Source: a virus
Lineage: Duplodnaviria > Heunggongvirae > Uroviricota > Caudoviricetes
Length of the DNA: 44,632 nt
Virus record (IMG/VR): IMGVR_UViG_3300045988_026856
Coordinates: 1-44,632 of that record
Reading direction: 5' to 3' (one strand)
Under the pieces are notes generated by a model that ran no database searches, had not been told where the DNA came from, and saw only the letters and a program-made list of their open reading frames with translations. Shown here piece by piece: positions 1,263-35,669 of the stretch. The translations under genes were made by a program, and so were the position numbers. Position 1 is the first letter of the stretch, and each line of letters opens with the position of its first letter.

Positions 1263-1296
1263 TCACTTATCGGAACGAAACAGAGGAGTGAGGGTT

Positions 1297-1476
1297 ATGT
1301 TTAAACGTGGTCAAATCGCACGAGATAACAACGGTTCTATTTATTCTATCCGTAGCATGGAGATTTTTAACGGGTTCTATCGTGTGCAGGATGTTGTTTC
1401 AGGTAAGGTGCTTGTACGCCATGCTTCCAATTTAAAGCTCATCGGCAACAATTTTAAATTCAAAGGGGTGGAGTGA
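1297..1476 (+). CDS. hypothetical early protein (59 aa)
   Basis: ORF track; start refined to ATG after GAGGAG RBS. Confidence 0.5.
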   Translation: MFKRGQIARDNNGSIYSIRSMEIFNGFYRVQDVVSGKVLVRHASNLKLIGNNFKFKGVE

Positions 1477-4407: not shown

Positions 4408-4601
4408 TGGTGCAGAGATATGAGGTAAAAGCGTGGGGCCTGCCAGAGCCTGAGATGGCTGAGTACGCATATGGCGATTATGTAGAATACGACGCTTATC
4501 TGAAACTTGAAGCAAAGTTACGTGAATTCGCTGAACAGGTAATGTACGAACCTTGTTCGAAAGTTACAGAAGAAATGGCCCGCGAGATTCTCGGAATATG
4601 A
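4407..4601 (+). CDS. hypothetical protein (64 aa); paralog of 4225..4407
   Basis: Start refined to internal ATG with GGGGTGGAG RBS. Confidence 0.45.
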   Translation: MVQRYEVKAWGLPEPEMAEYAYGDYVEYDAYLKLEAKLREFAEQVMYEPCSKVTEEMAREILGI

Positions 4602-4891
4602 GCCTTGCAACTGACATCCTGAAACGAAGCGGCCTTGCGCCGCTGTCACCGAGAGCTAAAACACAGATATACAAGCGTCGCCGTAACGCGCTGTACCCGG
4701 AGATTCAGGCCAGACGTAAAGCGGTCCGCGCCTGTGGATTCCAGAACGGGAAGGCCGTGAATCTCGGTGAGTTTAAAACACAAGAACGCGCCGCAATCGC
4801 TAATCGACTATTTAATTACTGGAAATCGCTGGGGTACGATGATATTCCGACGAAACCCCAGAGACGACAATACATCTGGAGACACAAATAA
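4598..4891 (+). CDS. hypothetical basic protein (97 aa), possible AP2-like DNA-binding fold
   Basis: Start refined to ATG overlapping upstream stop; NGKAVNLGEFKTQERAAIA segment weakly AP2-like. Confidence 0.45.
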   Translation: MSLATDILKRSGLAPLSPRAKTQIYKRRRNALYPEIQARRKAVRACGFQNGKAVNLGEFKTQERAAIANRLFNYWKSLGYDDIPTKPQRRQYIWRHK

Positions 4892-18414: not shown

Positions 18415-18827
18415 TGGGCTACTTTGAGGACTTAACAAAAGCGTTCGACGTGCCGCTGGTAGCCTTCGGAACCGCCAACGGCATCAAGGTTGCGCTTGAA
18501 AACATCGACGCGCCGACGTCAACTGATACGCCGTATCTGGCAAGTTACATGTTACTTGCGGATACAGAACAGGCGGATTTGTTCTTCACAGAACAACGCT
18601 CAGGTGTTTATCAGGTCGACATTAACTACGCATCGGTGAAAGGTAGCGCGCCAATCAATAAAATGGCAGACTTACTTAACACAGCGTTTAAAGCAGGTAA
18701 GTCATTTTCACGTAACGACATCTGCGCCGAGGTTCAATCGGTTAGCCTGGGGCCGCTGATTGTAGAAAACGGATGGGCCAAAAGACCATTGTCAATTAAC
18801 TTTATTGCATTCACCAAGAGGCTGTGA
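18411..18827 (+). CDS. putative tail terminator / tail completion protein
   Basis: Size and position between neck and major tail gene. Confidence 0.45.
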   Translation: MMGYFEDLTKAFDVPLVAFGTANGIKVALENIDAPTSTDTPYLASYMLLADTEQADLFFTEQRSGVYQVDINYASVKGSAPINKMADLLNTAFKAGKSFSRNDICAEVQSVSLGPLIVENGWAKRPLSINFIAFTKRL

Positions 18828-19996
18828 ATATGGCTACAACTCCTTTTAAGGGCGCGAATACCGCGCAATTCTATGTGGCGGAAACTACCCCGGGCGTAAC
18901 ACCTACTAACCCGGTCTGGTCGCCGTTGCGTAACACGGGCGGTGTTCCGGCTGTAACCCGCGATGCGCTGACTTCCAACGAACTCGACGGCAGCCGTGAA
19001 ACTACATCCATTCGCACCGGTAACAAGCAGGTTAGCGGGGAGTATGCCATCGAACTTAGCTCACGTAGCCAGGATGACTTCCTTGCGGGGGCGATGACTT
19101 CTACGTGGCAAGCTGGGGTAGAGATTACGGGCGCCGAAATTACGGTCGCCCCCGCGGGTAAAACATTCACCCGCGCTGCCGGTAGCTTCATTACTGACGG
19201 TGTAGAAGTTGGTGACCTGATCGCGTTCACCGACTTAACCGGCGACAACGCAAAACCGTTTATCGTGACCGCGGTTTCTGCTCTTGTAGTAACAGGCGCG
19301 GGCATTCAGCACACGCTGACAGCAGAGACAGTAACCACTGACGCAAAAACTGGCGACAAACTGGAAACCGGTAACGCATGTAAGACGTTCTCCATCCTGA
19401 CGTGGTTCAAAGGCCAGTGCGGCAACCCTGACGCATACATGCTGACCAAAGGTGTGGAAATCTCCGGTTTCACCATTGAACAGGCCGTAAACGCGATGGT
19501 GACAGGCAGCTTCCCGTTCATCGGCCTGAGTCAGGAGATTCTTTCCAGGCCGCCGGCAGGTTCCGACTTCTCTCAGGTCACATTCACTGACGAGCCGTTC
19601 TCATCCGTAGATGTGTCTGTGTTCGACGGTTCTACGCCGTTGCGTTGCGATACTCTGACCATCACCAACGACAACGGTGCTTCCGCGCAGTTTGAACTTG
19701 GCAACAGTAGCGTCGCGTTCGTGGAACGCGGCCGCGCAGCTAACACATTCTCCATCTCCGGCAAGCTGTATGACATGGCGATGATTCAGAAGTTTATCAA
19801 CGAGCAGCAGGTAGAGATTAACTCTATTCTGGCGGGGGTAAACGGGGCTATGTCTTTCAGTTTGAAACGTGCAGAGCTTACGGCGGTTACACCTGAGATT
19901 GGTGGGCCTGAGTCAATCACTCAGTCCATTGAAGGCCAGGCTACCGGCAATCAGTACCAGTCGTCTATCGTAATTCAACGTATCACCTACGCATAA
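18824..19996 (+). CDS. major tail protein
   Basis: 390 aa, upstream of chaperone/tape-measure genes, followed by terminator. Confidence 0.6.
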   Translation: MNMATTPFKGANTAQFYVAETTPGVTPTNPVWSPLRNTGGVPAVTRDALTSNELDGSRETTSIRTGNKQVSGEYAIELSSRSQDDFLAGAMTSTWQAGVEITGAEITVAPAGKTFTRAAGSFITDGVEVGDLIAFTDLTGDNAKPFIVTAVSALVVTGAGIQHTLTAETVTTDAKTGDKLETGNACKTFSILTWFKGQCGNPDAYMLTKGVEISGFTIEQAVNAMVTGSFPFIGLSQEILSRPPAGSDFSQVTFTDEPFSSVDVSVFDGSTPLRCDTLTITNDNGASAQFELGNSSVAFVERGRAANTFSISGKLYDMAMIQKFINEQQVEINSILAGVNGAMSFSLKRAELTAVTPEIGGPESITQSIEGQATGNQYQSSIVIQRITYA

Positions 19997-20024: not shown

Positions 20025-20255
20025 TTACTCATCAATATTACTTCGGTACTCCCGTAACTTCTCCAGACTTTCAATTGCTTCCGCTAAGTCTGTTCCGGTG
20101 TCCTTGTGCCCGCGAAGGCCCATACACAATAGCTTCTTCAATGCGTGTTGTAACGCCGGGTCGCGGATATCGAAGGCACGTAGCACATCATAAACGTCTA
20201 CTGTCATAGTGCTGCCGTGGGTGTTTGTCATTGTGCGGTTGTATTTTGAAGTCAT
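20025..20255 (-). CDS. small hypothetical protein (76 aa), possibly DUF3310-like
   Basis: VDVYDVLRAF...HALKKLLCMGLRGHKD...DLAEAI pattern (tentative, from memory); ATGA-coupled to upstream gene. Confidence 0.5.
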   Translation of the reverse strand: MTSKYNRTMTNTHGSTMTVDVYDVLRAFDIRDPALQHALKKLLCMGLRGHKDTGTDLAEAIESLEKLREYRSNIDE

Positions 20256-21382
20256 CCCAGCATCTCCGGTGAAATAGTTAAACGTGCGACCTCGCCATAT
20301 TCGGCGCTATAAGTAATTACGTTTGCACTACGGCCTGACATCCATCCGCCGCGAGAGGCGTAGGCGTCTTTAGCCGCCAGGGTGCGGTGCTGCTCAACAA
20401 TCATGTTACGGCTTTCCACAATCTTCTGGTGGTGCAGGTGGCCTACGTGGGCGTAGCTGTAAACACTCTCGCCGAACGCTTTGCGGAACTTGGCAATCAT
20501 AACCGGCTCGATAGCGTCGAATCGTGCTTTATGCCCGTGGTGAAAGAACAACGTCGTTTTTCCGTGTTGCACCATCTTGTAAACATCCGGCGACGTATCG
20601 ACAATCACTCGGCTGTCGTTTGAGTATAAAACCGTGAACATTTCAGCCAGCCATACGGAGCCGACGGGGTCGTGGTTACCTTGAACGATTAAAAGTTTGA
20701 CTGTGTGATGCTTAACGAGAGCCATATCAACGACACGGCGCACCATACGAATCATGTAGCGAACTAGTTTCTGATAGCGAGTATCGGCGTCTAACACATG
20801 ACGCGACTCGGGGGTAACGGCATCAAGACTATCGAAGTGCGCGAAGTCTCCAAGCAGGTTAATAACTCCTGTTCCTGCATCTGGTGCTTTCTGAAACGCC
20901 GCGTCGAACCATCGAGAGAACAGGTCCTCTGCAATCTTCATGTCCCAGTCGTCTCCGCTCTCGTCGGCCCATGCAAGCATACCGAGATGGAAATCAGACA
21001 CAGTGTAAAGATTGAGTAATTTATCGTCGCGTTTGGTGCGAACAGCTTTAACAGGTGCAACGGGGGTAATCTCTGACTTCATGCCTTCAATTACAGCTTT
21101 CATCAACTCGACCTGACGTTCAGCATCGGTGTCAGTCTTAACCCATTGCAACTTAGTGTTGCCGAACTCGTCCACAAGTGACGATGTGCCTTTAATCTTG
21201 TAGCCATCCGGCACAAGGTGGCTAACGTCGCGCCCGTGTCCTATGCCTTTCTTTGCCAGCTTCGCTTTACGGATGCGAATAACGCGGTCTGAGATGCCGT
21301 ATTTACGGGCGATGTCTACATTCTTCATCCCGGCGTTCAATTCTTCCCGTAACTGTTCGTCGGTTATTTTCTTATGAGCCAT
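20252..21382 (-). CDS. N-terminal HTH fused to SbcD/Mre11-like metallophosphoesterase
   Basis: HTH (NVDIARKYGISDRVIRIRKAK); phosphoesterase motifs SDFHLG, GDFAHFD, GNHD, HHGH, GHLHH in canonical order; GAGGAAG RBS. Confidence 0.75.
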   Translation of the reverse strand: MAHKKITDEQLREELNAGMKNVDIARKYGISDRVIRIRKAKLAKKGIGHGRDVSHLVPDGYKIKGTSSLVDEFGNTKLQWVKTDTDAERQVELMKAVIEGMKSEITPVAPVKAVRTKRDDKLLNLYTVSDFHLGMLAWADESGDDWDMKIAEDLFSRWFDAAFQKAPDAGTGVINLLGDFAHFDSLDAVTPESRHVLDADTRYQKLVRYMIRMVRRVVDMALVKHHTVKLLIVQGNHDPVGSVWLAEMFTVLYSNDSRVIVDTSPDVYKMVQHGKTTLFFHHGHKARFDAIEPVMIAKFRKAFGESVYSYAHVGHLHHQKIVESRNMIVEQHRTLAAKDAYASRGGWMSGRSANVITYSAEYGEVARLTISPEMLG

Positions 21383-22212: not shown

Positions 22213-22572
22213 TTGCTCCAGTTTGCCCGTTGGAACTTCATAACCCGCCACAAACGGCGGGAGTTTGACAGCATTGCCGACGGACATAAAGCCGCGCTAA
22301 TTGCTATGGGGGTTATGCAAGACGCGCCGGAAGCAACGCAGGATACCGGGCCAGAATGCCCCCCTGAGCTATTAACCACCTTCGAGAAGTACCGGGAAAT
22401 CAAATTTACCCGCCGAGTGGATGACGACGGCATCAAGATGTACCCGCGCGAACAGTTAAGATGGTCGGATTTAGTGGCATACAGCACCGTTTCGGGCCAG
22501 AATATAGACATGTTTGAATCTGACATCATCATGAGCTTAGACGCTATTTTCGAGGGCAGAAACGATGGCTGA
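22213..22572 (+). CDS. possible -1 frameshift extension of the tail assembly chaperone
   Basis: Frame open from about 22156, overlaps the chaperone 3' end in the -1 frame, no clear RBS; slippery site not identified. Confidence 0.35.
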   Translation: MLQFARWNFITRHKRREFDSIADGHKAALIAMGVMQDAPEATQDTGPECPPELLTTFEKYREIKFTRRVDDDGIKMYPREQLRWSDLVAYSTVSGQNIDMFESDIIMSLDAIFEGRNDG

Positions 22573-24904
22573 TGTAGCTAGTTTAGTTGTAAAAGTATCA
22601 GAGCAAGGCGCGAAAGCTACCTCAGACCGTCTTGATAACCTTTCCAAGTCCGCAAAGGTAGCCGGGGCCGCGGTAGCGGGCCTCGCTTCCATCGTCGCTG
22701 CTACCGCGTACAAGGCCGCACAGGAACTGGTAGACTCCCAACGGCAACTGGATAAGATGTCCGCCAGCCTGAAAACACTAACCGGAAGCACGCAGGGGGC
22801 AAGACAGGCATTAAGCATCCTGCAAGACTTCGCGCGCGACACTCCGTATGGTCTTGAACAGGCAGTAGAGGGATTCCGTAAACTTGTGGCGCTTGGTCTT
22901 ACACCATCAGAAGAAGCGTTGCGCTCCTATGGCAACACTGCCGCTGCTATGGGTAAAGACCTAAATCAGATGATTGAGGCCGTTGCGGACGCCAGTACGT
23001 TTGAATTTGAGCGCCTTAAAGAATTCGGCATCAAGGCTAAGCAGAACAAAGACGATGTTGAATTTACATTCCAGGGCACTACTACGGTGGTTAAGAAGAG
23101 CGCTGCCGATATCGAGCAATACCTGCTCAACATTGGTAACGTAAACTTCGCTGGGGCTATGGCGGACCAGGCTAACACACTTAACGGGGCCATAGCCAGT
23201 GCCAGCGACTCATGGTCGCAGTTAAAAATGACACTGGCTACCAGTCTTTATGTTGGTGCGCTCGCCGAACCTATCCGATACATCGATGATTTAATCCAGG
23301 AACTTAACGCACAGGTTGCATCCGGTGAACTTGCCGCAGAGATGCGTATGTGGGGTGACATCGCGTCGGAAGTAGGAAGCGCGATAGAGATGTCGTTCGA
23401 CGCGGCATTTGGTTTTGTAGGTGACGCGATAAATGGACTGAATGAACTTTGGGATTTTAGCAGTAAAAGTATCACCGACAGCGGCGAACAAACGGCGACA
23501 ACCATCGCGGAATCAGCAGCCGATGCGCTCGATTTCATCGCGGAAGAATTTACCGCGATGGAGCGCTTCTTTGAAGATATGGTTAAAGGGGCGCAGGACG
23601 CTGGCCGGTTGGTGAAAGCAGCCTTCACACCAGGGGAATCTGTAGACGTAGCAAAAAACATTAACTTCCAGCTAGGGATGGCACTGGATACTCAGCGCGA
23701 TGTTGCGGACCTGACCCGTAAAAGTTTCCGCGAACAGGTGGAGGCTCAGCAAAATATCGTCGCGCTTAAACGCGCGGCATATGACATCGACAAAGAAGCC
23801 GCTAAGGAAGAAGGGCTTAGTAAATTTAAGGTAACTGGTACTGGTGGCGGGTCCGAAGATGATAATGCTGGTGCAAAAGCCGCCAAGAAAGCTGCGGACG
23901 CGTTCGAGCGCCAGAAGAAAGCGGCGGAAGACTTCTACTATCAGTCAATCCATCTTAATGATGACGTATTTCAGAAAATAGAAGCTAACCAGGAAGAGCA
24001 ACTATCTAAGTTGCAGGATTTCTATAGCAATAAGCTTCTTAGCGACCAGCAATACGAAAACGCCAAGACGCAGATTATGCTCTCTGCCGAACAGGCCCGC
24101 CAGGAAGAACTGGATAAGAAAAGGAAGGAGGCCCAGGAGAAGCAACAGAAAGGTGATGATTTCATGGCTCAGATTATGGGCCAGAACGCCACCGAGCTTG
24201 AGCTTCTGGATATTCAGGAACAGCAGAAACTGGCGGTAGCTGATAAGTACCGTGAGCAGGGTCTGATTAGCGAGAAGCAGTATCAGGCTGCGCTTAACGC
24301 CATCAACGAGCAGTACGCCACAAAGCGTGCCGGCGCAACGGCAACTGCCTTTGGTAACATGGCTTCAAACATCGGGTCTGCGTTGGGCGAGGCTTCTGGT
24401 GCGTACAAGGCATTCGCTATCGTACAGGCCACTATAGCCACGTACACCGCCGCCATTGAAGCGTATAAGTCAACGGCGGCTATCCCGGTTGTTGGACCAT
24501 TCCTTGCACCAGTAGCTGCTGCCGCTGCCGTTGGGGCGGGTATGGCTCAGGTTTCCGCTATCAGGTCAGCACGTGAACAGGGCGGTCAGTTATCAGCGGG
24601 ACAGGCTTCCACCATCGCCGAGCGCGGAAAACCAGAAGTTATCATGCCTGCGGGTGCATCGCGTGTGCGCACCGCGCAGCAGATGAAAGAAATTATGGGG
24701 CAAAACGGCGGCAGTACCGGACCAGCCAATATCAGCATTATAAATAACACCAGTGCACAAATTGGCAACACCAGCGTTGAACAGGACGAAGAAGGCCGCC
24801 TACGTATCATCATCGAAGAACAGGTAGCCGCCTCTTTGCAGAATAGCAACAGCAAAATATCGAAAGCGAGGAAGGCTACAAGAAACGCACCGGGCTTTAA
24901 GTAG
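22565..24904 (+). CDS. tail tape measure protein
   Basis: 779 aa, coiled-coil-rich, position after chaperones. Confidence 0.8.
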   Translation: MADVASLVVKVSEQGAKATSDRLDNLSKSAKVAGAAVAGLASIVAATAYKAAQELVDSQRQLDKMSASLKTLTGSTQGARQALSILQDFARDTPYGLEQAVEGFRKLVALGLTPSEEALRSYGNTAAAMGKDLNQMIEAVADASTFEFERLKEFGIKAKQNKDDVEFTFQGTTTVVKKSAADIEQYLLNIGNVNFAGAMADQANTLNGAIASASDSWSQLKMTLATSLYVGALAEPIRYIDDLIQELNAQVASGELAAEMRMWGDIASEVGSAIEMSFDAAFGFVGDAINGLNELWDFSSKSITDSGEQTATTIAESAADALDFIAEEFTAMERFFEDMVKGAQDAGRLVKAAFTPGESVDVAKNINFQLGMALDTQRDVADLTRKSFREQVEAQQNIVALKRAAYDIDKEAAKEEGLSKFKVTGTGGGSEDDNAGAKAAKKAADAFERQKKAAEDFYYQSIHLNDDVFQKIEANQEEQLSKLQDFYSNKLLSDQQYENAKTQIMLSAEQARQEELDKKRKEAQEKQQKGDDFMAQIMGQNATELELLDIQEQQKLAVADKYREQGLISEKQYQAALNAINEQYATKRAGATATAFGNMASNIGSALGEASGAYKAFAIVQATIATYTAAIEAYKSTAAIPVVGPFLAPVAAAAAVGAGMAQVSAIRSAREQGGQLSAGQASTIAERGKPEVIMPAGASRVRTAQQMKEIMGQNGGSTGPANISIINNTSAQIGNTSVEQDEEGRLRIIIEEQVAASLQNSNSKISKARKATRNAPGFK

Positions 24905-24940
24905 TAACAAAAAAAATAAGGCCCGAAAGGGCCTTATTTA
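24905..24940. terminator. bidirectional terminator (A8-TAAGGCCC-GAAA-GGGCCTTA-TTT)
   Basis: Stem-loop flanked by A-run and T-run between convergent genes. Confidence 0.65.
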
Positions 24941-25893
24941 TGCGGAACTTTAGGCTTCACTCCGTCCCTACAAAGGGCCAAAATCTCTGGAATTATCTTA
25001 GGGTCTGAGGTTAGCATCCACTCCGTGGATCCGTCGAAGCTGCCATAGCCCCACTCATTCGACGCTATTTTGTAAGTGTTATGGAAATACACTTCTAGCA
25101 TTCGTATTTTTGCGCCGTTATCGTCGCGATGAATGCCAAGCACTTCGAAACCAAAGGGGGTAGCGTTACGCAGGTGACGTATCCGCTGTTTAGGCCTGTT
25201 TGATAACCCTATCTTCACGAATCGGCCGCATTCACTAAGTAACGCATAGAGGAACCCAGTTTTATTAGGGTCGTACCCGCTAGAGGCACATCCAGGACAT
25301 CCTTGATTCTGATGAATGATATCTGCTATTCGCTGGCTAAACTCACCATGGATATCGCAAAGCCGCACCGCTTTGCTATACTGATTCTTATACCCTCCTT
25401 CGAAGCGCAAGAACTTCCACTTATCACTCACGGCGTAAATCTGCGAGATGCGTTCCTCCTCTGAGTATGAAGGTCTTCCCGCGCAACTAGGACACCCATG
25501 TTCCTTACTAATTGCGTTAGCTATCAAAGTGTCGAACTCCCCGTGTTCGGGACAGAGCCTACGTACCTTAGAATAGGCGTTTCGATAGCCGTTAGGAAAT
25601 CCTACAAAACTGTATTGCGGGGCTACCTTAGCTAGTTCCTCTACTACATTGCTCTCAGGTTTTCGCTGTTTGCTTGATGAAGATTCTTTTCCACACCTAG
25701 GGCACCCAATACCTTTTTTAATACTAGCGGCCGTTGCCGAGAAAGCCCCATGTTCGCGGCAAAATAGGGTTATCTTACTAAACGCACCTGTATACCCCGC
25801 ACCATCGTCCAACAACTCGTATTTACCGCCGTGGTTGGCTAAATCAGCTAATATCCTCTCGCGGCGCTCAGGCCATAGTATTTTCCGGCACAT
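24934..25893 (-). CDS. three zinc-ribbon repeats fused to a C-terminal GIY-YIG-like (T5orf172-type) domain
   Basis: Three repeats of YSK..LC..HGEF...(7-9)...GCP.C; C-terminal GFLYAL...VKIGLSNRPKQRIRHL...GSTEWM; start refined to ATG at 25893 with GAGGT RBS. Confidence 0.7.
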   Translation of the reverse strand: MCRKILWPERRERILADLANHGGKYELLDDGAGYTGAFSKITLFCREHGAFSATAASIKKGIGCPRCGKESSSSKQRKPESNVVEELAKVAPQYSFVGFPNGYRNAYSKVRRLCPEHGEFDTLIANAISKEHGCPSCAGRPSYSEEERISQIYAVSDKWKFLRFEGGYKNQYSKAVRLCDIHGEFSQRIADIIHQNQGCPGCASSGYDPNKTGFLYALLSECGRFVKIGLSNRPKQRIRHLRNATPFGFEVLGIHRDDNGAKIRMLEVYFHNTYKIASNEWGYGSFDGSTEWMLTSDPKIIPEILALCRDGVKPKVPHK

Positions 25894-25923
25894 AATCAAC
25901 CTCAATAAAGAGTATTAACTAGT

Positions 25924-25952
25924 ATACTATTCAACCATGGGGCCCGGGTCAA
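25924..25952 (-). promoter_or_regulatory. sigma70-like promoter TTGACC-N17-TAGTAT for the 24934..25893 gene
   Basis: Hexamers on minus strand about 30 nt upstream of the start. Confidence 0.4.
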
Positions 25953-26038
25953 CATAAACGTCGTGATGTTACGCCCCCTCCATGGTAGCATTGGCTTAAA
26001 GTTATTGCGATGGTATCCAATCTACCGGGGTTTAAATA

Positions 26039-27436
26039 ATGAGCGACTTATACTTTCCACGTAGCCTTAAGCCGGTGGTATCAAAAGGCTACTCAATGAC
26101 CAGACGTAACAACGTCTGGAGTGTAGATTTAGCCGGTGGCGGGGTGCGTCAGGGCCGTGACACATATTACGACGTGTTCCCTGTTAGCGTAACCCTCATT
26201 ACATCCGCAATGGGGCGACAGGCGTTTCTGTCGTTCCTCGAAAAAGTAGACGGCGGTGCGTCAAGTTTCTGGATGGCGCACGACTTCGGCATGGGTATTG
26301 AGGACTACCAGGTAACCATCACGTCAACCATCGCGGAATCCACCGAAGACGGCATTAACTGGACGATTACCTTCACGGCAACCGCCGAGAAATCGCCGTT
26401 CCAGGACCTTGAGAACCAGTGCCTGATTAACAATCTGCCAGATTTGTACGGTTGTTACGGGGATTGTCTGGGTAGTTTCCTGAAAATATACGCGAACTAC
26501 GAAACTACGTTCCCGCGCATCTGGAGCAATGAAGGGCCTGCCGGGTATCCACCGATTAACCTTCTGGCGTCGACTCTTGATAGCCGCATTGTTTACGATG
26601 GGCCACAGGTTTACTACATCAACCGAAATGGCAATCTTGTGCAGTCCGCCGCCAATGAATGGCCTCTTACGTTCATTGATGGTGTTGCGGTCGGGCGTGT
26701 GCCGCCAGAATCCACATCCAGCAATATCCTGATTAAATCGTCGAAATTATCTGACGCATCGTGGGTTAAAACTAGAGCAACAGTGTCGGACGCAGTTGAC
26801 GGATTTCTAAACGGCGGTACGTTCTCACTAGTCCCGACCCAGACAAACGACAGCCATCTCGTATATCAATCGGTGTCTTCCGCTTTTGCGGAGGGTGATG
26901 TATACACTCTCAGTTACGTTGCTAAGGCATATGGTTATAATTATGCGAGACTTCGCGCCGCTGATGATGCTGGGTTTATCGCGGATTGTGTTGCTAACTT
27001 ATCGACAGGGGTTATTTACGCGGGCGCCCCCGGCAGCGATATAGCAGAGCTTGGCGATGGTTGGTATCGATTTACAGAAACGGTAGCTATACGCCAGGGC
27101 GGCGCATCTTCTCTGCTTTTAGCGTCATGGGTGTACAACAACTCCGCCGTTGGTTCATTTGTCGGTGACGGGGTTAGTGGGATATTAGTGTGCGCGATGC
27201 AAATAGAAAAATCACCTTTTGCCACGTCGCCAATAGTAACCGAATCGTCACCGGTAACCCGAACGACGGCATCAGCAAAAGTAACCATGAATGGCGCGAC
27301 AAGCATTGACATTACCTACTCCGACGGCTCCGTGATAAACGTTCCGTCTGTAGATGATTACGCGGCTATCCCTCAAGCGGATTCGGCGTGGGGTAGTAAA
27401 TACATCACTCGTATTGATTTTAATGTGGACGGTTAA
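26039..27436 (+). CDS. minor tail protein, gpM-like N-terminal domain with long C-terminal extension
   Basis: N-terminal about 110 aa resemble lambda gpM (YYDVFPVSVTL...FLSFLEKVDGGASSFWM). Confidence 0.5.
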   Translation: MSDLYFPRSLKPVVSKGYSMTRRNNVWSVDLAGGGVRQGRDTYYDVFPVSVTLITSAMGRQAFLSFLEKVDGGASSFWMAHDFGMGIEDYQVTITSTIAESTEDGINWTITFTATAEKSPFQDLENQCLINNLPDLYGCYGDCLGSFLKIYANYETTFPRIWSNEGPAGYPPINLLASTLDSRIVYDGPQVYYINRNGNLVQSAANEWPLTFIDGVAVGRVPPESTSSNILIKSSKLSDASWVKTRATVSDAVDGFLNGGTFSLVPTQTNDSHLVYQSVSSAFAEGDVYTLSYVAKAYGYNYARLRAADDAGFIADCVANLSTGVIYAGAPGSDIAELGDGWYRFTETVAIRQGGASSLLLASWVYNNSAVGSFVGDGVSGILVCAMQIEKSPFATSPIVTESSPVTRTTASAKVTMNGATSIDITYSDGSVINVPSVDDYAAIPQADSAWGSKYITRIDFNVDG

Positions 27437-33279: not shown

Positions 33280-33461
33280 TTATTACCTTCGCTTTTCTTA
33301 AAACTGCGCTTTATATCCGGCAGCGTGTAGCATCGCGACTTTTCGTATTTACCGTCCGCGCTTACCAAAACAAAGCTGTTGCCGTCTTTTGATATGTACT
33401 CGATGGTGAAAGTATTGAATGAATGTACACTGTATATTTCATCGCCAACATTAAGTTTCAT
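33276..33461 (-). CDS. hypothetical protein (61 aa)
   Basis: ORF track; coupled to helicase gene. Confidence 0.45.
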   Translation of the reverse strand: MKLNVGDEIYSVHSFNTFTIEYISKDGNSFVLVSADGKYEKSRCYTLPDIKRSFKKSEGNK

Positions 33462-34882
33462 TTCTTACCTCGTCTCTTCATGTAATTAAGCAATTCTTCC
33501 TGGACCGATTTCTTCTCGTCAGTACGCGCGGCAACAACCTCGTCCAGCGTGTCTTTAGCAACGATGTGGTAAAGGAATACCGGGCGCTCGTGTCCCGCCT
33601 GTTTCTGGCGTACCGGGCCTATACGCTCAACGACCTGCAAATAGTGCTCAAGGTTCCAGCCTTGTGAAATAAACGCCAGATGATGCCCACCGTCCTGTAA
33701 ATTGAGGCCGTGGCCCGCTGACGCCGGATGTACGCATAAGATTTCGATTTCACCGCGGTTCCACGCTTCCATCTGCTTATTGCCCTTAGCACCTTTTGCA
33801 AACGCCTGGGCTTGAGGGAATCGCTTAAGGATACGTTCCAGTTCGTGCTTGAACTGATAGGCGACCAGTAGCGGTGCGCCCTGTAACTCCTCGACAATGG
33901 ACTCAAGCGCATCCAGTTTCGTATCGTGCACTTTCTCCCAGTCTTTGGTTGCTTCTCCGTCCGGCCCCGACACATACACGGCACCAGATGCAATCTGCAA
34001 ACACTTCGACGTCTTCGCCGCTGCGTTAGCTGCTTCAACTTCTCCGCTCTCCAGTTCTGCAAATAGCTTCTCCTCCATATCTATGTACGCCTGACGCGCT
34101 TTCTTCGGCAGGTCGATTTCAACCGGTACGATAATCGGCGCTTCACAACCGAACCACTCAGCGGCGTCAATCGTGAGACTAATGTCCTTCATCTTCTGGT
34201 GAATCTCAGTATCCGCGCCCGGGCGGGCGTGATACTCTCGTGCCATAGCGGACTTACCCTTCTGTACCGAATTAAACCAGCGGTCGGTGAACGCGGTGTA
34301 TGAAGAACCCAGGCGCTCGCCAGCGTCGATAAACCAGTTCTGGCCCCACAGGTCTTTGAGGCCATTTGGTGATGGCGTACCGGTAAGGTTGATGAAACGC
34401 TTAACCTTACCGAATGCCACTTTACTAAGCGCCTTTGCCCGCTTGCTGCCACCTGAACGGCTACGGAAAGATTTCAGTTTCGTGCTTTCATCGGCAACAA
34501 TAACCGTAAAAGGCCAGTCGTCTTTGCCGTAGTAGTCAATCAGCCACTCGATAACTTCGTAGTTAGTGCACACCACGTTAGCATCTGACTCCAGCGCCGC
34601 GATGCGGCGCTTCTCTGAACCGGTCGCATCTACGACACGCAGACACGGGAAACCCCACTTAGTTTGTTCTGAGGGCCATGTGCCGGACGCAACACGTAAA
34701 GGGGCCAGAATTAACACTCTGTCGCCGTCGTTAAGCTGACCATTACGGAACAGCCTGTTCAACGCCCACAGTACGCTGCCAGTCTTCCCGGCGCCCATGC
34801 TTGCCCAAATATTACAGCGAGGGTGCTGCAACATGAACGAAGTCATGAGCTTTTGGTACTCGCGCCTTTGGAACCTACTCAT
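33458..34882 (-). CDS. SF2 (SNF2/DEAD-like) helicase
   Basis: Walker A GAGKTG and DEST box (VIVADESTKLK). Confidence 0.8.
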   Translation of the reverse strand: MSRFQRREYQKLMTSFMLQHPRCNIWASMGAGKTGSVLWALNRLFRNGQLNDGDRVLILAPLRVASGTWPSEQTKWGFPCLRVVDATGSEKRRIAALESDANVVCTNYEVIEWLIDYYGKDDWPFTVIVADESTKLKSFRSRSGGSKRAKALSKVAFGKVKRFINLTGTPSPNGLKDLWGQNWFIDAGERLGSSYTAFTDRWFNSVQKGKSAMAREYHARPGADTEIHQKMKDISLTIDAAEWFGCEAPIIVPVEIDLPKKARQAYIDMEEKLFAELESGEVEAANAAAKTSKCLQIASGAVYVSGPDGEATKDWEKVHDTKLDALESIVEELQGAPLLVAYQFKHELERILKRFPQAQAFAKGAKGNKQMEAWNRGEIEILCVHPASAGHGLNLQDGGHHLAFISQGWNLEHYLQVVERIGPVRQKQAGHERPVFLYHIVAKDTLDEVVAARTDEKKSVQEELLNYMKRRGKK

Positions 34883-35669
34883 TTACCGCCCCCATGAATG
34901 CCTTTATAAATTCAGCGGCTACTTGCGGGACGATGGCATTGCCGTAACCGCGCAATCGTCCCACTCTGGCGGGTACCCCATTAGCCAGCGGGAATGTGCT
35001 GGGTTCAACTGGCCTGAATTTCCCATCCCGGCATCCGAGCCAGTCAGCATCTGACCAGAACCCGTTAGGCGGATTGGCTGTGCCAGAGATGCCTCTGTTT
35101 GCAGATTGTGGCCCCCGTTCCTGCCCTGATGGCCTGCTCCCGCCGAGTTGTTCGCACACGGTGTTGGCCAGTTGCTGCGCTCCGAAGAACAATCGATTCC
35201 TTTTGTGCGGTGCGCCGACGCTACAAGCTGGGAGTACGGCAAACCCGACGGCGTAGTCTTCTCTTTCCAGGTGAGTTTGTAAATCGCACATCCACGATTT
35301 TGCAATTGCTGCCGCAACCTGCTCCCCAAAGATAACTGGAGGGCGGCACTCGCTGATGAGGTCGAGGAACACAGGTGCGAGGTGTCTCTGGTCGAACTGT
35401 CCGAGTTGCTTTCCTGCCGTGCTAAACGGTTGGCAAGGCGGGCTTCCCGTCCAGAGAGGCGCATCTTCCGGAACTCCAGCAAGTCTGAGCGCGAGAGGCC
35501 AGCCGCCGATACCAGCGAAAAAATGACACTGGGTGAACCCGTCAAGGTCTTCTGGTCTAACTTCGGTAATGCTTCTTTCATCTACAACTCCAAAAGGTAT
35601 GTGACCCTGTTTTATTAATTCACGCAGCCACGCGGCTGCGCCTTTATCCCATTCGTTGTAATAGTTCAT
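34875..35669 (-). CDS. DNA (cytosine-5)-methyltransferase, orphan
   Basis: Motif I FAGIGG, motif IV PCQPFS, HKRNR, C-terminal GNAIVPQV; no restriction partner nearby. Confidence 0.8.

What the first reader, a model, noticed from the sequence alone, without database searches (positions are those of the whole stretch)
24905..25952. Minus-strand single-gene insert between tape measure and tail-tip genes: triple zinc-ribbon + GIY-YIG-like (T5orf172-type) protein
A 319-aa protein (25893..24934) has three tandem repeats of about 50 aa, each with a C..HGEF...GCP.C zinc-ribbon-like motif, followed by a C-terminal GIY-YIG-like domain ending in TEW. It has its own promoter (TTGACC-N17-TAGTAT) and abuts a bidirectional terminator. 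The domain order is not that of classic GIY-YIG homing endonucleases (catalytic domain N-terminal), so it may be a selfish nuclease or a defence/anti-defence effector.
Basis: partly seen in the sequence, partly recalled or inferred. Interest (0 to 1): 0.65.

Follow-up and report, generated by a model that had tools for sequence, protein, structure and literature searches.

The report
Free-standing T5orf172 homing endonuclease gene
This is a selfish "homing" nuclease gene of an already described phage family, wedged backwards between the tape-measure gene and the next tail gene of an E. coli Kagunavirus-like phage; it is an ordinary case, though several unrelated selfish nuclease genes take turns at this same site.

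Summary
A 319-aa minus-strand ORF (24934..25893) sits in a 1.1-kb insert between the tape measure gene (TMP, stop at 24904) and the next tail gene (ATG at 26039). In the closest relatives those two genes overlap (TAATG).

The protein has three CapR/DUF723-type Cys-His-Cys-Cys zinc modules and a C-terminal T5orf172/MUG113 domain:
- PHROG 681 "endonuclease", E = 1e-67.
- The family-invariant Tyr, Arg and Glu-x3-His are present.

This domain order is the published norm for T5orf172 homing endonucleases (Barth et al. 2023), so it is not unusual. PADLOC gives no defence hit, and Rfam finds no intron.

The site is a hot spot. About 22 related loci are empty. Others carry a 94% identical copy, two other T5orf172 variants (38-42% identity), two HNH+AP2 endonucleases, or only a 45-nt spacer.

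The last 18 TMP codons next to the insert differ from empty-site phages at 13 codons, all synonymous. This "allele B" tail was never seen with a virgin empty site. Both edges of the insert coincide with recombination breakpoints.

Verdict: a free-standing homing endonuclease gene, a new member of a known kind. Cleavage, target site and homing are inferred, not shown.

The parts
22565..24904 (+). Tape measure protein gene (779 aa), the left flank of the insert
   Evidence: ORF. Annotated as tape measure in relatives. PF20155 TMP_3 on the homolog in L005.
24851..24904 (+). Last 18 codons of TMP, 'allele B'. It encodes the same amino acids (..SKISKARKATRNAPGFK*) as in empty-site phages but has 16 nucleotide differences in 13 codons, all synonymous. 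This is a candidate recoded or protected target, or a co-conversion tract.
   Evidence: 13 synonymous-difference codons is the maximum over 763 sliding windows, where the mean is 3.9; the tract stays 91-100% identical to the window even where upstream TMP is about 50% identical; allele B was found only with endonuclease inserts or the 45-nt spacer.
24914..24939 (.). Hairpin with an 11-bp stem. It is the intrinsic terminator of the endonuclease gene (minus strand, followed by U8) and overlaps the gene's stop codon. The same hairpin is the left border shared with the HNH cassettes.
   Evidence: The sequence is identical in SHAK7693, which carries a different endonuclease.
24934..25893 (-). Homing endonuclease gene, 319 aa plus stop
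   Evidence: PHROG 681 'endonuclease', E = 1.2e-67. dN/dS = 0.21 against the 94% identical copy in L005.
25687..25860 (-). Zinc module 1 (aa 12-69; ligands C45, H48, C64, C67)
25474..25650 (-). Zinc module 2 (aa 82-140; ligands C114, H117, C134, C137). This is the best CapR/DUF723/DUF4379 match.
25279..25452 (-). Zinc module 3 (aa 148-205; ligands C179, H182, C199, C202)
24964..25278 (-). T5orf172/MUG113-type GIY-YIG nuclease domain (aa 206-310). Family-invariant residues: Y216, K227, G229, R237, E267, F286, G288, T290, E291, W292; H271 is nearly invariant.
25900..25903 (-). Shine-Dalgarno GAGG, 6 nt upstream of the ATG at 25893
   Evidence: Read from the sequence
25924..25952 (-). Sigma-70-like promoter TTGACC-N17-TAGTAT
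   Evidence: consensus match only. The hexamers are conserved in L005 and L060.
25915..26038 (.). Promoter 'platform'. It is about 90% identical in a contig (L060) whose T5orf172 protein is only 38% identical. Similarity starts at the palindrome over the -10 element (25915-25934).
26025..26041 (+). A second, empty-site-type copy of the TMP 3' end (CCGGGGTTTAAATA) followed by the ATG. It supplies the ribosome-binding region of the downstream gene. It forms a 15-nt imperfect direct repeat with 24890..24904.
26039..27436 (+). Downstream tail or virion structural gene (465 aa), the right flank
   Evidence: phrog_384 'virion structural protein', phrog_5939 'tail protein'

Best explanation
This is a free-standing homing endonuclease gene of the T5orf172 branch of the GIY-YIG superfamily. 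It lies antisense in the tail-gene module of a Kagunavirus-like E. coli siphophage.

Proposed mechanism (inferred):
- The gene is transcribed from its own sigma-70-type promoter and stopped by its own terminator.
- The three CapR-type Cys-His-Cys-Cys zinc modules act as a string of DNA-reading units that bind an extended target.
- The tethered C-terminal nuclease domain cuts nearby.
- In a mixed infection the target would be the endonuclease-free form of the TMP/downstream-gene junction in a related phage.
- Repair of the break from the gene-carrying genome copies in the gene, together with its flanks: the recoded TMP tail on the left, and the promoter platform plus a duplicated ribosome-binding segment on the right.
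- The carrier would be protected because the insertion splits the junction and because the last 18 TMP codons are synonymously recoded.

What is shown: the anatomy, family membership, fold, conserved catalytic residues, purifying selection, a sporadic distribution with a precise empty site, several unrelated endonuclease genes at the same site, and mosaic breakpoints at both edges.

What is inferred: nuclease activity, target identity, protection by recoding, and homing itself.
For: Insert and empty site: the window has 1134 nt between the TMP stop and the next ATG. In vB_EcoS-22664BS2 and about 22 IMG/VR loci the two genes overlap as TAATG.

Family:
- PHROG 681 'endonuclease', E = 1.2e-67.
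- CapR PF21817, 47 bits against a cut-off of 24.2.
- 64 of 68 and 59 of 68 aligned homologs match MUG113 and T5orf172.
- The 42% identical homolog at the same site passes the Pfam cut-offs for MUG113, T5orf172 and CapR.

Catalytic motifs: Y216, R237 and E267 are invariant and H271 is nearly invariant across 68 homologs. The E-x3-H motif matches E180-x3-H184 of ICP1 Odn. The E180A change abolishes Odn cleavage in vitro (PMC8263062).

Selection: dN/dS is 0.21 overall and 0.15 in the nuclease domain, against the 94% identical copy at the same site in another phage contig.

Hot spot: the same site also holds two other T5orf172 variants (42% and 38% identity), two HNH+AP2 endonucleases, or a 45-nt spacer.

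Mosaic edges:
- Left: the TMP tail and terminator are 100% identical to SHAK7693, which carries an HNH gene instead.
- Right: similarity to empty-site phages resumes at 26025.
- The promoter platform from 25915 is shared with a 38% identical endonuclease gene.

Recoding: 13 of the last 18 TMP codons differ synonymously and none non-synonymously. This is the densest such cluster in the gene.

Architecture and behaviour match the published description of T5orf172 homing endonuclease genes (PMC10448857).
Against: - No cleavage, target site or homing event can be shown here. Even for the ICP1 T5orf172 genes, homing 'has not been experimentally verified' (PMC10448857).
- The protein itself scores just below the Pfam cut-offs for T5orf172 (19.1 against 20) and MUG113 (20.6 against 22.3).
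- The promoter match is no better than chance in shuffled sequence.
- The recoded TMP tail (allele B) is shared by three unrelated endonuclease types and by spacer-only loci. The DUEC01-type T5orf172 variant sits beside the unrecoded allele A. Allele B may therefore be a hitch-hiking lineage marker rather than protection specific to this enzyme.
- The census loci are not phylogenetically independent.
Confidence: 0.8

Rival explanations
1. A homing-endonuclease-derived nuclease recruited as a weapon, as ICP1 Odn was. It would cut the genome of a competing phage, satellite or other mobile element, rather than promote its own spread.
For: Odn has the same general plan: an N-terminal DNA-binding domain plus a C-terminal T5orf172 domain. 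It is a proven sequence-specific nuclease used against the PLE satellite (PMC8263062). The catalytic residues are intact and under purifying selection here. Cutting empty-site co-infecting phages would also act as competition, so this reading overlaps with homing.
Against: The DNA-binding modules are the ordinary CapR type found across the family, not a domain captured from a target element. The gene is rare and sporadic at a site where it is interchangeable with unrelated endonuclease genes. That is the pattern of selfish turnover, not of a retained useful function.
Confidence: 0.08
2. A decaying or domesticated endonuclease that now acts only as a DNA-binding regulator (like the PLE protein CapR). 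It might, for example, tune expression of the tail genes around it.
For: CapR is a domesticated relative that represses transcription (PMC8096241). The gene lies antisense inside the late tail operon, and its hairpin directly follows the TMP stop. An imperfect palindrome overlaps its own -10 element.
Against: CapR lacks the nuclease domain. Here that domain is complete, keeps all family-invariant residues, and has dN/dS = 0.15. The palindrome is not strictly conserved in L005, and the promoter region has no similarity to the empty-site junction. Most relatives do without the gene.
Confidence: 0.05
3. A defence or anti-defence effector carried as a moron.
For: GIY-YIG domains do occur in defence proteins; the PD-T4-3 structure is among the fold matches. 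The gene has its own promoter and terminator, as morons do.
Against: PADLOC gives no match. There are no partner genes. The family is annotated and described as homing endonucleases (PMC10448857). The site alternates with HNH+AP2 homing endonucleases.
Confidence: 0.03
4. A conserved structural or assembly component of the tail.
For: Only its position between the TMP gene and the distal tail genes.
Against: It is absent from the nearest relatives, which have an exact empty site. It is on the opposite strand and is a nuclease-family protein.
Confidence: 0.01

Closest known systems
T5orf172 homing endonuclease genes of ICP1 and other phages (Barth, Dunham and Seed 2023, PMC10448857)
   Same: The architecture is the same: one to several N-terminal CapR/DUF723/DUF4379 zinc-finger modules followed by a C-terminal T5orf172 nuclease domain. 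The genes are free-standing, sit next to essential or structural genes including TMP, vary in presence between close relatives, co-occur with HNH+AP2 ('IPA-HNH') endonucleases, and lie at boundaries of genetic exchange.
   Different: The host clade differs (an E. coli Kagunavirus-like phage of the Guernseyvirinae). The best GenBank phage protein is only 42.5% identical. This particular hot spot (the TMP stop / next-gene start junction), with its recoded TMP tail and shared promoter platform, did not come up in the papers I read. I did not search the literature for it specifically.
ICP1 Odn (Gp88), an origin-directed T5orf172 nuclease (PMC8263062)
   Same: It has a C-terminal T5orf172 domain with the same Y / K-I/V-G / R / E-x3-H motifs. 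It is the only relative cited here with nuclease activity demonstrated in vitro, and that activity depends on the Glu that aligns with E267 here.
   Different: Odn has a RepA_N DNA-binding domain captured from its target satellite, and it serves as an anti-satellite weapon. The pairwise similarity to this protein is weak (E = 0.05).
CapR of the V. cholerae PLE satellites (PMC8096241)
   Same: The zinc-finger DNA-binding module is homologous (Pfam PF21817 is named after it).
   Different: CapR is a repressor without a nuclease domain. Here there are three modules plus an intact nuclease domain.
Classic GIY-YIG homing endonucleases (I-TevI and the T4 Seg proteins)
   Different: The domain order is reversed: in these enzymes the nuclease is N-terminal. 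The second motif is K-I-G rather than Y-I-G. The DNA-binding modules are different.

Membership tests
T5orf172 / MUG113 (GIY-YIG superfamily) | Match to the Pfam T5orf172 (PF10544) or MUG113 (PF13455) model at the curated cut-off | tested here: inconclusive
   The protein itself scores 19.1 bits against a cut-off of 20, and 20.6 against 22.3. Of 68 aligned homologs, 59 match T5orf172 and 64 match MUG113 at E <= 1e-3. The 42% identical homolog at the same site passes both cut-offs. PHROG 681 matches at E = 1e-67.
T5orf172 / MUG113 (GIY-YIG superfamily) | GIY-YIG fold (three-stranded sheet with flanking helices) | tested here: met
T5orf172 / MUG113 (GIY-YIG superfamily) | Catalytic residues: the Tyr of motif 1, Arg, and Glu | tested here: met
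   Y216, R237 and E267 are invariant in 68 homologs. E267-x3-H271 corresponds by motif to Odn E180-x3-H184 (PMC8263062).
T5orf172 / MUG113 (GIY-YIG superfamily) | Endonuclease activity | not testable with these tools
   Requires purified protein and DNA substrates.
CapR-homology / DUF723 / DUF4379 zinc-finger DNA-binding modules | Profile match and four zinc ligands per module | tested here: met
   PF21817 scores 47 bits (cut-off 24.2) over three stretches. DUF723 scores 35.6 (cut-off 20.9) and DUF4379 25.7 (cut-off 24.5). Each of the three repeats has C-x2-H...C-x2-C, and the Cys columns are invariant or nearly so.
Free-standing homing endonuclease gene | Sporadic presence among close relatives with a precise empty site | tested here: met
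   About 22 related loci have the empty TAATG junction. This gene is found only in the window and in one SRA-derived contig. No GenBank phage protein exceeds 42.5% identity.
Free-standing homing endonuclease gene | Not inside an intron or intein, and with its own expression signals | tested here: met
   TMP ends at its own stop and the next gene has its own ATG. Rfam finds no intron. A promoter-like site, a Shine-Dalgarno sequence and a terminator are present, but these are consensus matches only.
Free-standing homing endonuclease gene | Sequence differences at or near the insertion site between carrier and non-carrier genomes, and co-converted flanks | tested here: met
   Allele B has 13 synonymous codon changes in the last 18 TMP codons. 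The tract moves independently of the rest of TMP. There are breakpoints at both edges. Whether these differences actually protect against cutting is untested.
Free-standing homing endonuclease gene | Cleavage of the gene-less allele and super-Mendelian inheritance in mixed infection | not testable with these tools
   Requires in vitro cleavage mapping and phage crosses.
Known anti-phage defence systems (PADLOC) | Match to any PADLOC model | tested here: not met
   No families match at E <= 1.

The most novel reading that the evidence does not exclude
The TMP/next-gene junction of Kagunaviruses may work as a reusable 'landing pad' for selfish nucleases. In this reading, a fixed expression platform takes unrelated endonuclease reading frames (at least three T5orf172 lineages and two HNH+AP2 lineages) that are swapped in and out by recombination. 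The platform would consist of a shared terminator hairpin on one side, and a shared promoter plus a duplicated ribosome-binding segment on the other. The synonymously recoded TMP tail (allele B) would act as general protection against several of these enzymes. The site would then record direct competition between endonuclease families for one target.
Probability: 0.2. Interest if true: 0.5.

Novelty: new member of a known kind. Interest (0 to 1): 0.3.

Why it matters
In itself it matters little. It adds one more T5orf172 homing endonuclease gene, in a phage genus much used in coliphage collections, and it corrects the impression that its domain order is unusual.

Its practical value is as a compact natural test case. 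It offers five or more occupant types, a virgin empty site, a spacer-only state and two TMP-tail alleles, all in easily grown E. coli phages. Homing has not been verified experimentally even for the ICP1 T5orf172 genes (PMC10448857). With this material, homing, target recognition by strings of CapR-type zinc modules, and endonuclease turnover could all be tested directly.

It is also a reminder for annotation: relatives label these genes 'hypothetical protein' or 'HNH endonuclease'.

Tried and rejected
- A word-indexed protein search with the C-terminal domain alone found nothing. The exhaustive HMMER search was used instead.
- A profile search against PDB sequences found no solved relative, only E > 0.1 hits to zinc-ribbon proteins. 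The fold comparison was needed.
- Intron-encoded endonuclease: rejected. Rfam gave only a sub-threshold sRNA hit at E = 0.04, and both flanking genes are complete.
- Autoregulation through an operator that mimics the target, as in I-TevI: no support. The best local alignment between the promoter region and the empty-site junction scores 9, against a shuffle mean of 8.7.
- A plus-strand promoter that would restart tail-gene transcription downstream of the insert: none found.
- DNA-level repeats that would reflect recent duplication of the zinc modules: none.
- A second copy or paralog elsewhere in the window: none.
- Defence system membership: none.
- Pairwise BLAST to Odn placed E180 five residues off. 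The E-x3-H motif was used to register it, so this equivalence rests on a motif, not on a significant alignment.

Full report
**1. The observation**

The ORF exists as described. It runs from 25893 to 24934 on the minus strand and encodes 319 aa from an ATG. A GAGG lies 6 nt upstream of that ATG. The ORF listing gives a TTG four codons upstream as the first possible start, but that codon overlaps the Shine-Dalgarno sequence.

The ORF lies between the tape measure gene (TMP, 22565..24904, plus strand) and a 465-aa tail gene starting at 26039.

The three repeats are real. Residues 12-69, 82-140 and 148-205 align with the invariant pattern G-Y, S-K, C-x2-H-G-x-F, A, I, G-C-P-x-C. Pfam CapR homology domain PF21817 matches three stretches (47 bits against a cut-off of 24.2), with overlapping DUF723 and DUF4379 'treble clef' matches. 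The repeats are old: nothing repeats at the DNA level.

The promoter-like TTGACC-N17-TAGTAT is at 25952..25924 (minus strand). One such match in 1.7 kb is no more than shuffled sequence gives.

The hairpin at 24914..24939 has an 11-bp stem (about -18 kcal/mol on either strand, z = -3.6 and -4.4). On the minus strand eight U follow it, which makes a textbook terminator. On the plus strand the U-rich stretch lies within the stem, so termination in that direction is only plausible.

**2. What the protein is**

Sequence family:
- PHROG 681 'endonuclease' matches at E = 1.2e-67.
- The C-terminal 121 residues find 511 cluster representatives (E <= 1e-3) among 1.84 billion proteins. In nearly all of the 150 hits listed, this domain is at the C-terminus of a 230-450-aa protein.
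- In an alignment of 68 of these, 64 match Pfam MUG113, 59 match T5orf172 and 57 match CapR.
- The query itself falls just under the T5orf172 and MUG113 cut-offs (19.1 against 20; 20.6 against 22.3).

Conserved residues:
- Invariant columns are Y216, K227, G229, R237, L241, G260, E267, F286, G288, T290, E291 and W292. H271 is nearly invariant.
- In GIY-YIG terms, Y216 is the Tyr of the first motif. K-I-G is the T5orf172 version of the second motif. R237 is the catalytic Arg.
- E267-x3-H271 corresponds by motif to E180-x3-H184 of ICP1 Odn. The E180A change abolishes Odn cleavage in vitro (PMC8263062).

Structure:
- An AlphaFold model built on the alignment has mean pLDDT 91.
- No solved structure is detectable by sequence alone.
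- Foldseek against predicted viral structures gives 252 hits at E <= 1e-3. They are named CapR homology domain protein, T5 Orf172 domain protein, GIY-YIG nuclease or homing endonuclease.

PADLOC has no match.

**3. The architecture is already described**

Barth, Dunham and Seed (PMC10448857) report that 200 of 229 T5orf172 homing endonucleases carry one or more CapR, DUF723 or DUF4379 zinc-finger modules. These are often repeated, and the nuclease domain is at the other end of the protein.

The same paper notes several further points that apply here:
- These genes sit next to essential and structural genes, including TMP.
- They vary between close relatives.
- They co-occur with HNH+AP2 endonucleases.
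- They mark boundaries of genetic exchange.
- Homing itself has not been verified experimentally for them.

**4. Context and presence/absence**

The window is a Kagunavirus-like E. coli siphophage. The nearest GenBank records are Guernseyvirinae, genus Kagunavirus, at about 90-92% identity.

In vB_EcoS-22664BS2 the TMP stop and the next gene's ATG overlap as TAATG. BLAST alignment places the borders of the extra DNA in the window at 24903 and 26025.

No GenBank phage record in the collection encodes a protein more than 42.5% identical. One SRA-derived contig (L005) carries a 94% identical, equally long copy at the same site. Between the two copies dN/dS is 0.21 overall and 0.15 in the nuclease domain. 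This is a single pair with 51 differences.

**5. The site is a hot spot**

I surveyed the junction in the GenBank examples, 46 IMG/VR loci, 4 metagenome contigs and 2 SRA contigs. It takes the following forms:

| Form of the junction | Where seen |
|---|---|
| (a) Virgin TAATG overlap | about 22 E. coli-phage loci |
| (b) This gene | the window and L005 |
| (c) 318-aa three-module T5orf172 protein, 38% identical | L060 |
| (d) 248-aa two-module T5orf172 protein, 42% identical | DUEC01, fFiEco02, L025 |
| (e) 216-aa HNH+AP2 endonuclease | SHAK7693, XY1, VIPECOTH07, L057, L059 (family assignment) |
| (f) Second HNH+AP2 protein, 39% identical to the first | L023 |
| (g) 45-nt spacer only | L047, L048, L058 |

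All occupants are on the minus strand. In the Salmonella-type relatives surveyed, the two genes abut with a gap of 1-3 nt and no insert.

By contrast, the other minus-strand gene in the structural module (20252..21382, PHROG 704 'DNA repair exonuclease') is present in every locus that reaches that far. Being on the minus strand is therefore not what marks the insert as foreign.

**6. Flanks**

*Left flank.* The last 18 TMP codons encode the same peptide in the window as in empty-site phages. They differ at 16 nucleotides in 13 codons, including AGC to TCG (Ser) and CGC to AGG (Arg), with no amino-acid change. Thirteen synonymous-difference codons is the maximum over all 763 18-codon windows of the gene, where the mean is 3.9.

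This 'allele B' tail is 91-100% identical to the window in loci whose upstream TMP is only about 50-60% identical. It therefore moves as a module.

Allele B was found only with occupants (b), (e), (f) or (g), and never with the virgin junction. Allele A goes with the virgin junction and with occupant (d). L060 has a third variant of the tail.

The terminator hairpin and the last roughly 130 nt of TMP are 100% identical between the window and SHAK7693, which carries the HNH gene. The two sequences diverge immediately after the stem.

*Right flank.* A 14-nt copy of the allele-A TMP end (CCGGGGTTTAAATA) precedes the downstream ATG. It preserves that gene's ribosome-binding region, and similarity to empty-site phages resumes exactly there.

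The 124 nt from 25915 to 26038 include the promoter hexamers. This stretch is about 90% identical in L060, although the two endonuclease coding sequences are unrelated at the DNA level. The breakpoint falls on an imperfect palindrome over the -10 element.

The spacer-only loci join the DUEC01-type left and right borders. They are either deletion footprints or the ancestral spacer into which the genes inserted. I cannot tell which.

**7. Most likely mechanism**

The best-supported reading is a free-standing homing endonuclease gene. The proposed steps are these:
- The zinc modules bind an extended site in endonuclease-free relatives, at or near the TMP/next-gene junction.
- The GIY-YIG-type domain cuts.
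- Recombinational repair from the carrier genome copies in the cassette with its flanks.
- The carrier escapes cutting because the junction is split and perhaps because the TMP tail is recoded.

The anatomy, family, fold, conserved catalytic residues, selection, distribution and mosaic edges are shown. The cutting, the target, the protective role of allele B and the homing are inferred.

One caveat needs stating. Allele B is shared by three unrelated endonuclease types, and occupant (d) lives beside allele A. The recoding may therefore be a hitch-hiking co-conversion tract rather than protection specific to this enzyme. The sampled loci are also not independent.

**8. Rivals**

- A weaponised nuclease like Odn remains possible and partly overlaps with homing, but nothing suggests a captured specificity domain.
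- A CapR-like regulator is unlikely, given the intact and constrained nuclease domain.
- The defence-effector and structural-component readings have no support.

**9. Verdict**

The identification as a zinc-ribbon plus T5orf172 protein is right, and the 'selfish nuclease' reading is supported. The suggestion that the architecture is unusual is not supported.

This is a new member of a known kind. The modest added interest lies in the locus: a compact, multi-family endonuclease hot spot with a recoded gene end and shared expression signals, in phages that are easy to cross.

Noticed in passing
window 20252..21382 (-): A second minus-strand gene lies inside the structural module, between the tail tube gene (18824..19996) and the tail assembly chaperone gene. 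It encodes 376 aa and matches PHROG 704 'DNA repair exonuclease' at E = 2e-161, with a weak Metallophos_2 hit. Unlike the endonuclease gene, it is present in every related locus that reaches that far, including the Salmonella-type ones, so it is a core gene.
   Followed up: partly
window 25915..25934; L060 (reverse complement) about 1283..1302: An imperfect palindrome (TTAACTAGTATACTATTCAA) overlaps the -10 element of the endonuclease promoter. It is exactly where similarity to the L060 cassette begins. In L060 it extends to what I read by eye as a perfect 18-nt palindrome (ATACTAGTTAACTAGTAT). In L005 one position differs. It could be an operator or a recombination site. It has no similarity to the empty-site junction.
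   Followed up: partly
L047 383..429, L048 4414..4460, L058 11477..11526: Three contigs have the recoded TMP tail (allele B) followed by only a 45-nt spacer (TAATATGGGTGTTAGGTTAACATCCAATCTATCGAGGTTCAAATA). The spacer joins the left and right borders of the DUEC01-type cassette. It is either a deletion footprint of a lost endonuclease gene or the ancestral spacer.
   Followed up: partly
window 24914..24939 versus L005: The terminator stem is the same in the window and L005, but the loop is inverted (GAAA in the window and SHAK7693, TTTC in L005 and DUEC01). BLAST also aligns the two hairpins at 100% in reverse orientation. This suggests flipping or recombination within the palindromic stem.
   Followed up: no
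window 26039..27436 (+): The downstream tail gene is modular. Its first ~160 aa (PHROG 384) are conserved, but the C-terminal ~300 aa (PHROG 11600) vary. L005 has a 166-aa gene instead. In SHAK7693 and XY1 the first codons also differ (MSSLKFPAS against MSDLYFPRS).
   Followed up: partly
window 22565..24904, TMP codons ~505-525 and ~715-735: Two internal TMP segments are hypervariable against close relatives, with up to 23 nucleotide differences per 18 codons and about 7 non-synonymous codons. The 60-180 nt before the stop drop to 60-80% identity. TMP is itself a mosaic.
   Followed up: no
L002 (GenBank OR594180.1, vB_EcoM_SHAK7693): The record is classified as Autographiviridae, Kayfunavirus and named vB_EcoM. 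Over the tail module, however, it is about 88-97% identical to this Kagunavirus-like siphophage. The record's taxonomy and name look wrong.
   Followed up: no
window 34875..35669 (-) and 33458..34882 (-): A C-5 cytosine DNA methylase homolog (PF00145, E = 2e-16) lies next to an SNF2/DEAD-type helicase gene in the replication module.
   Followed up: no
window 4688..4792 (+), inside ORF 4553..4891: There is weak tblastn similarity (E = 0.01, 40% over 35 aa) to the AP2 region of the HNH+AP2 endonuclease of SHAK7693. This may be a small AP2-type DNA-binding protein or a remnant.
   Followed up: no
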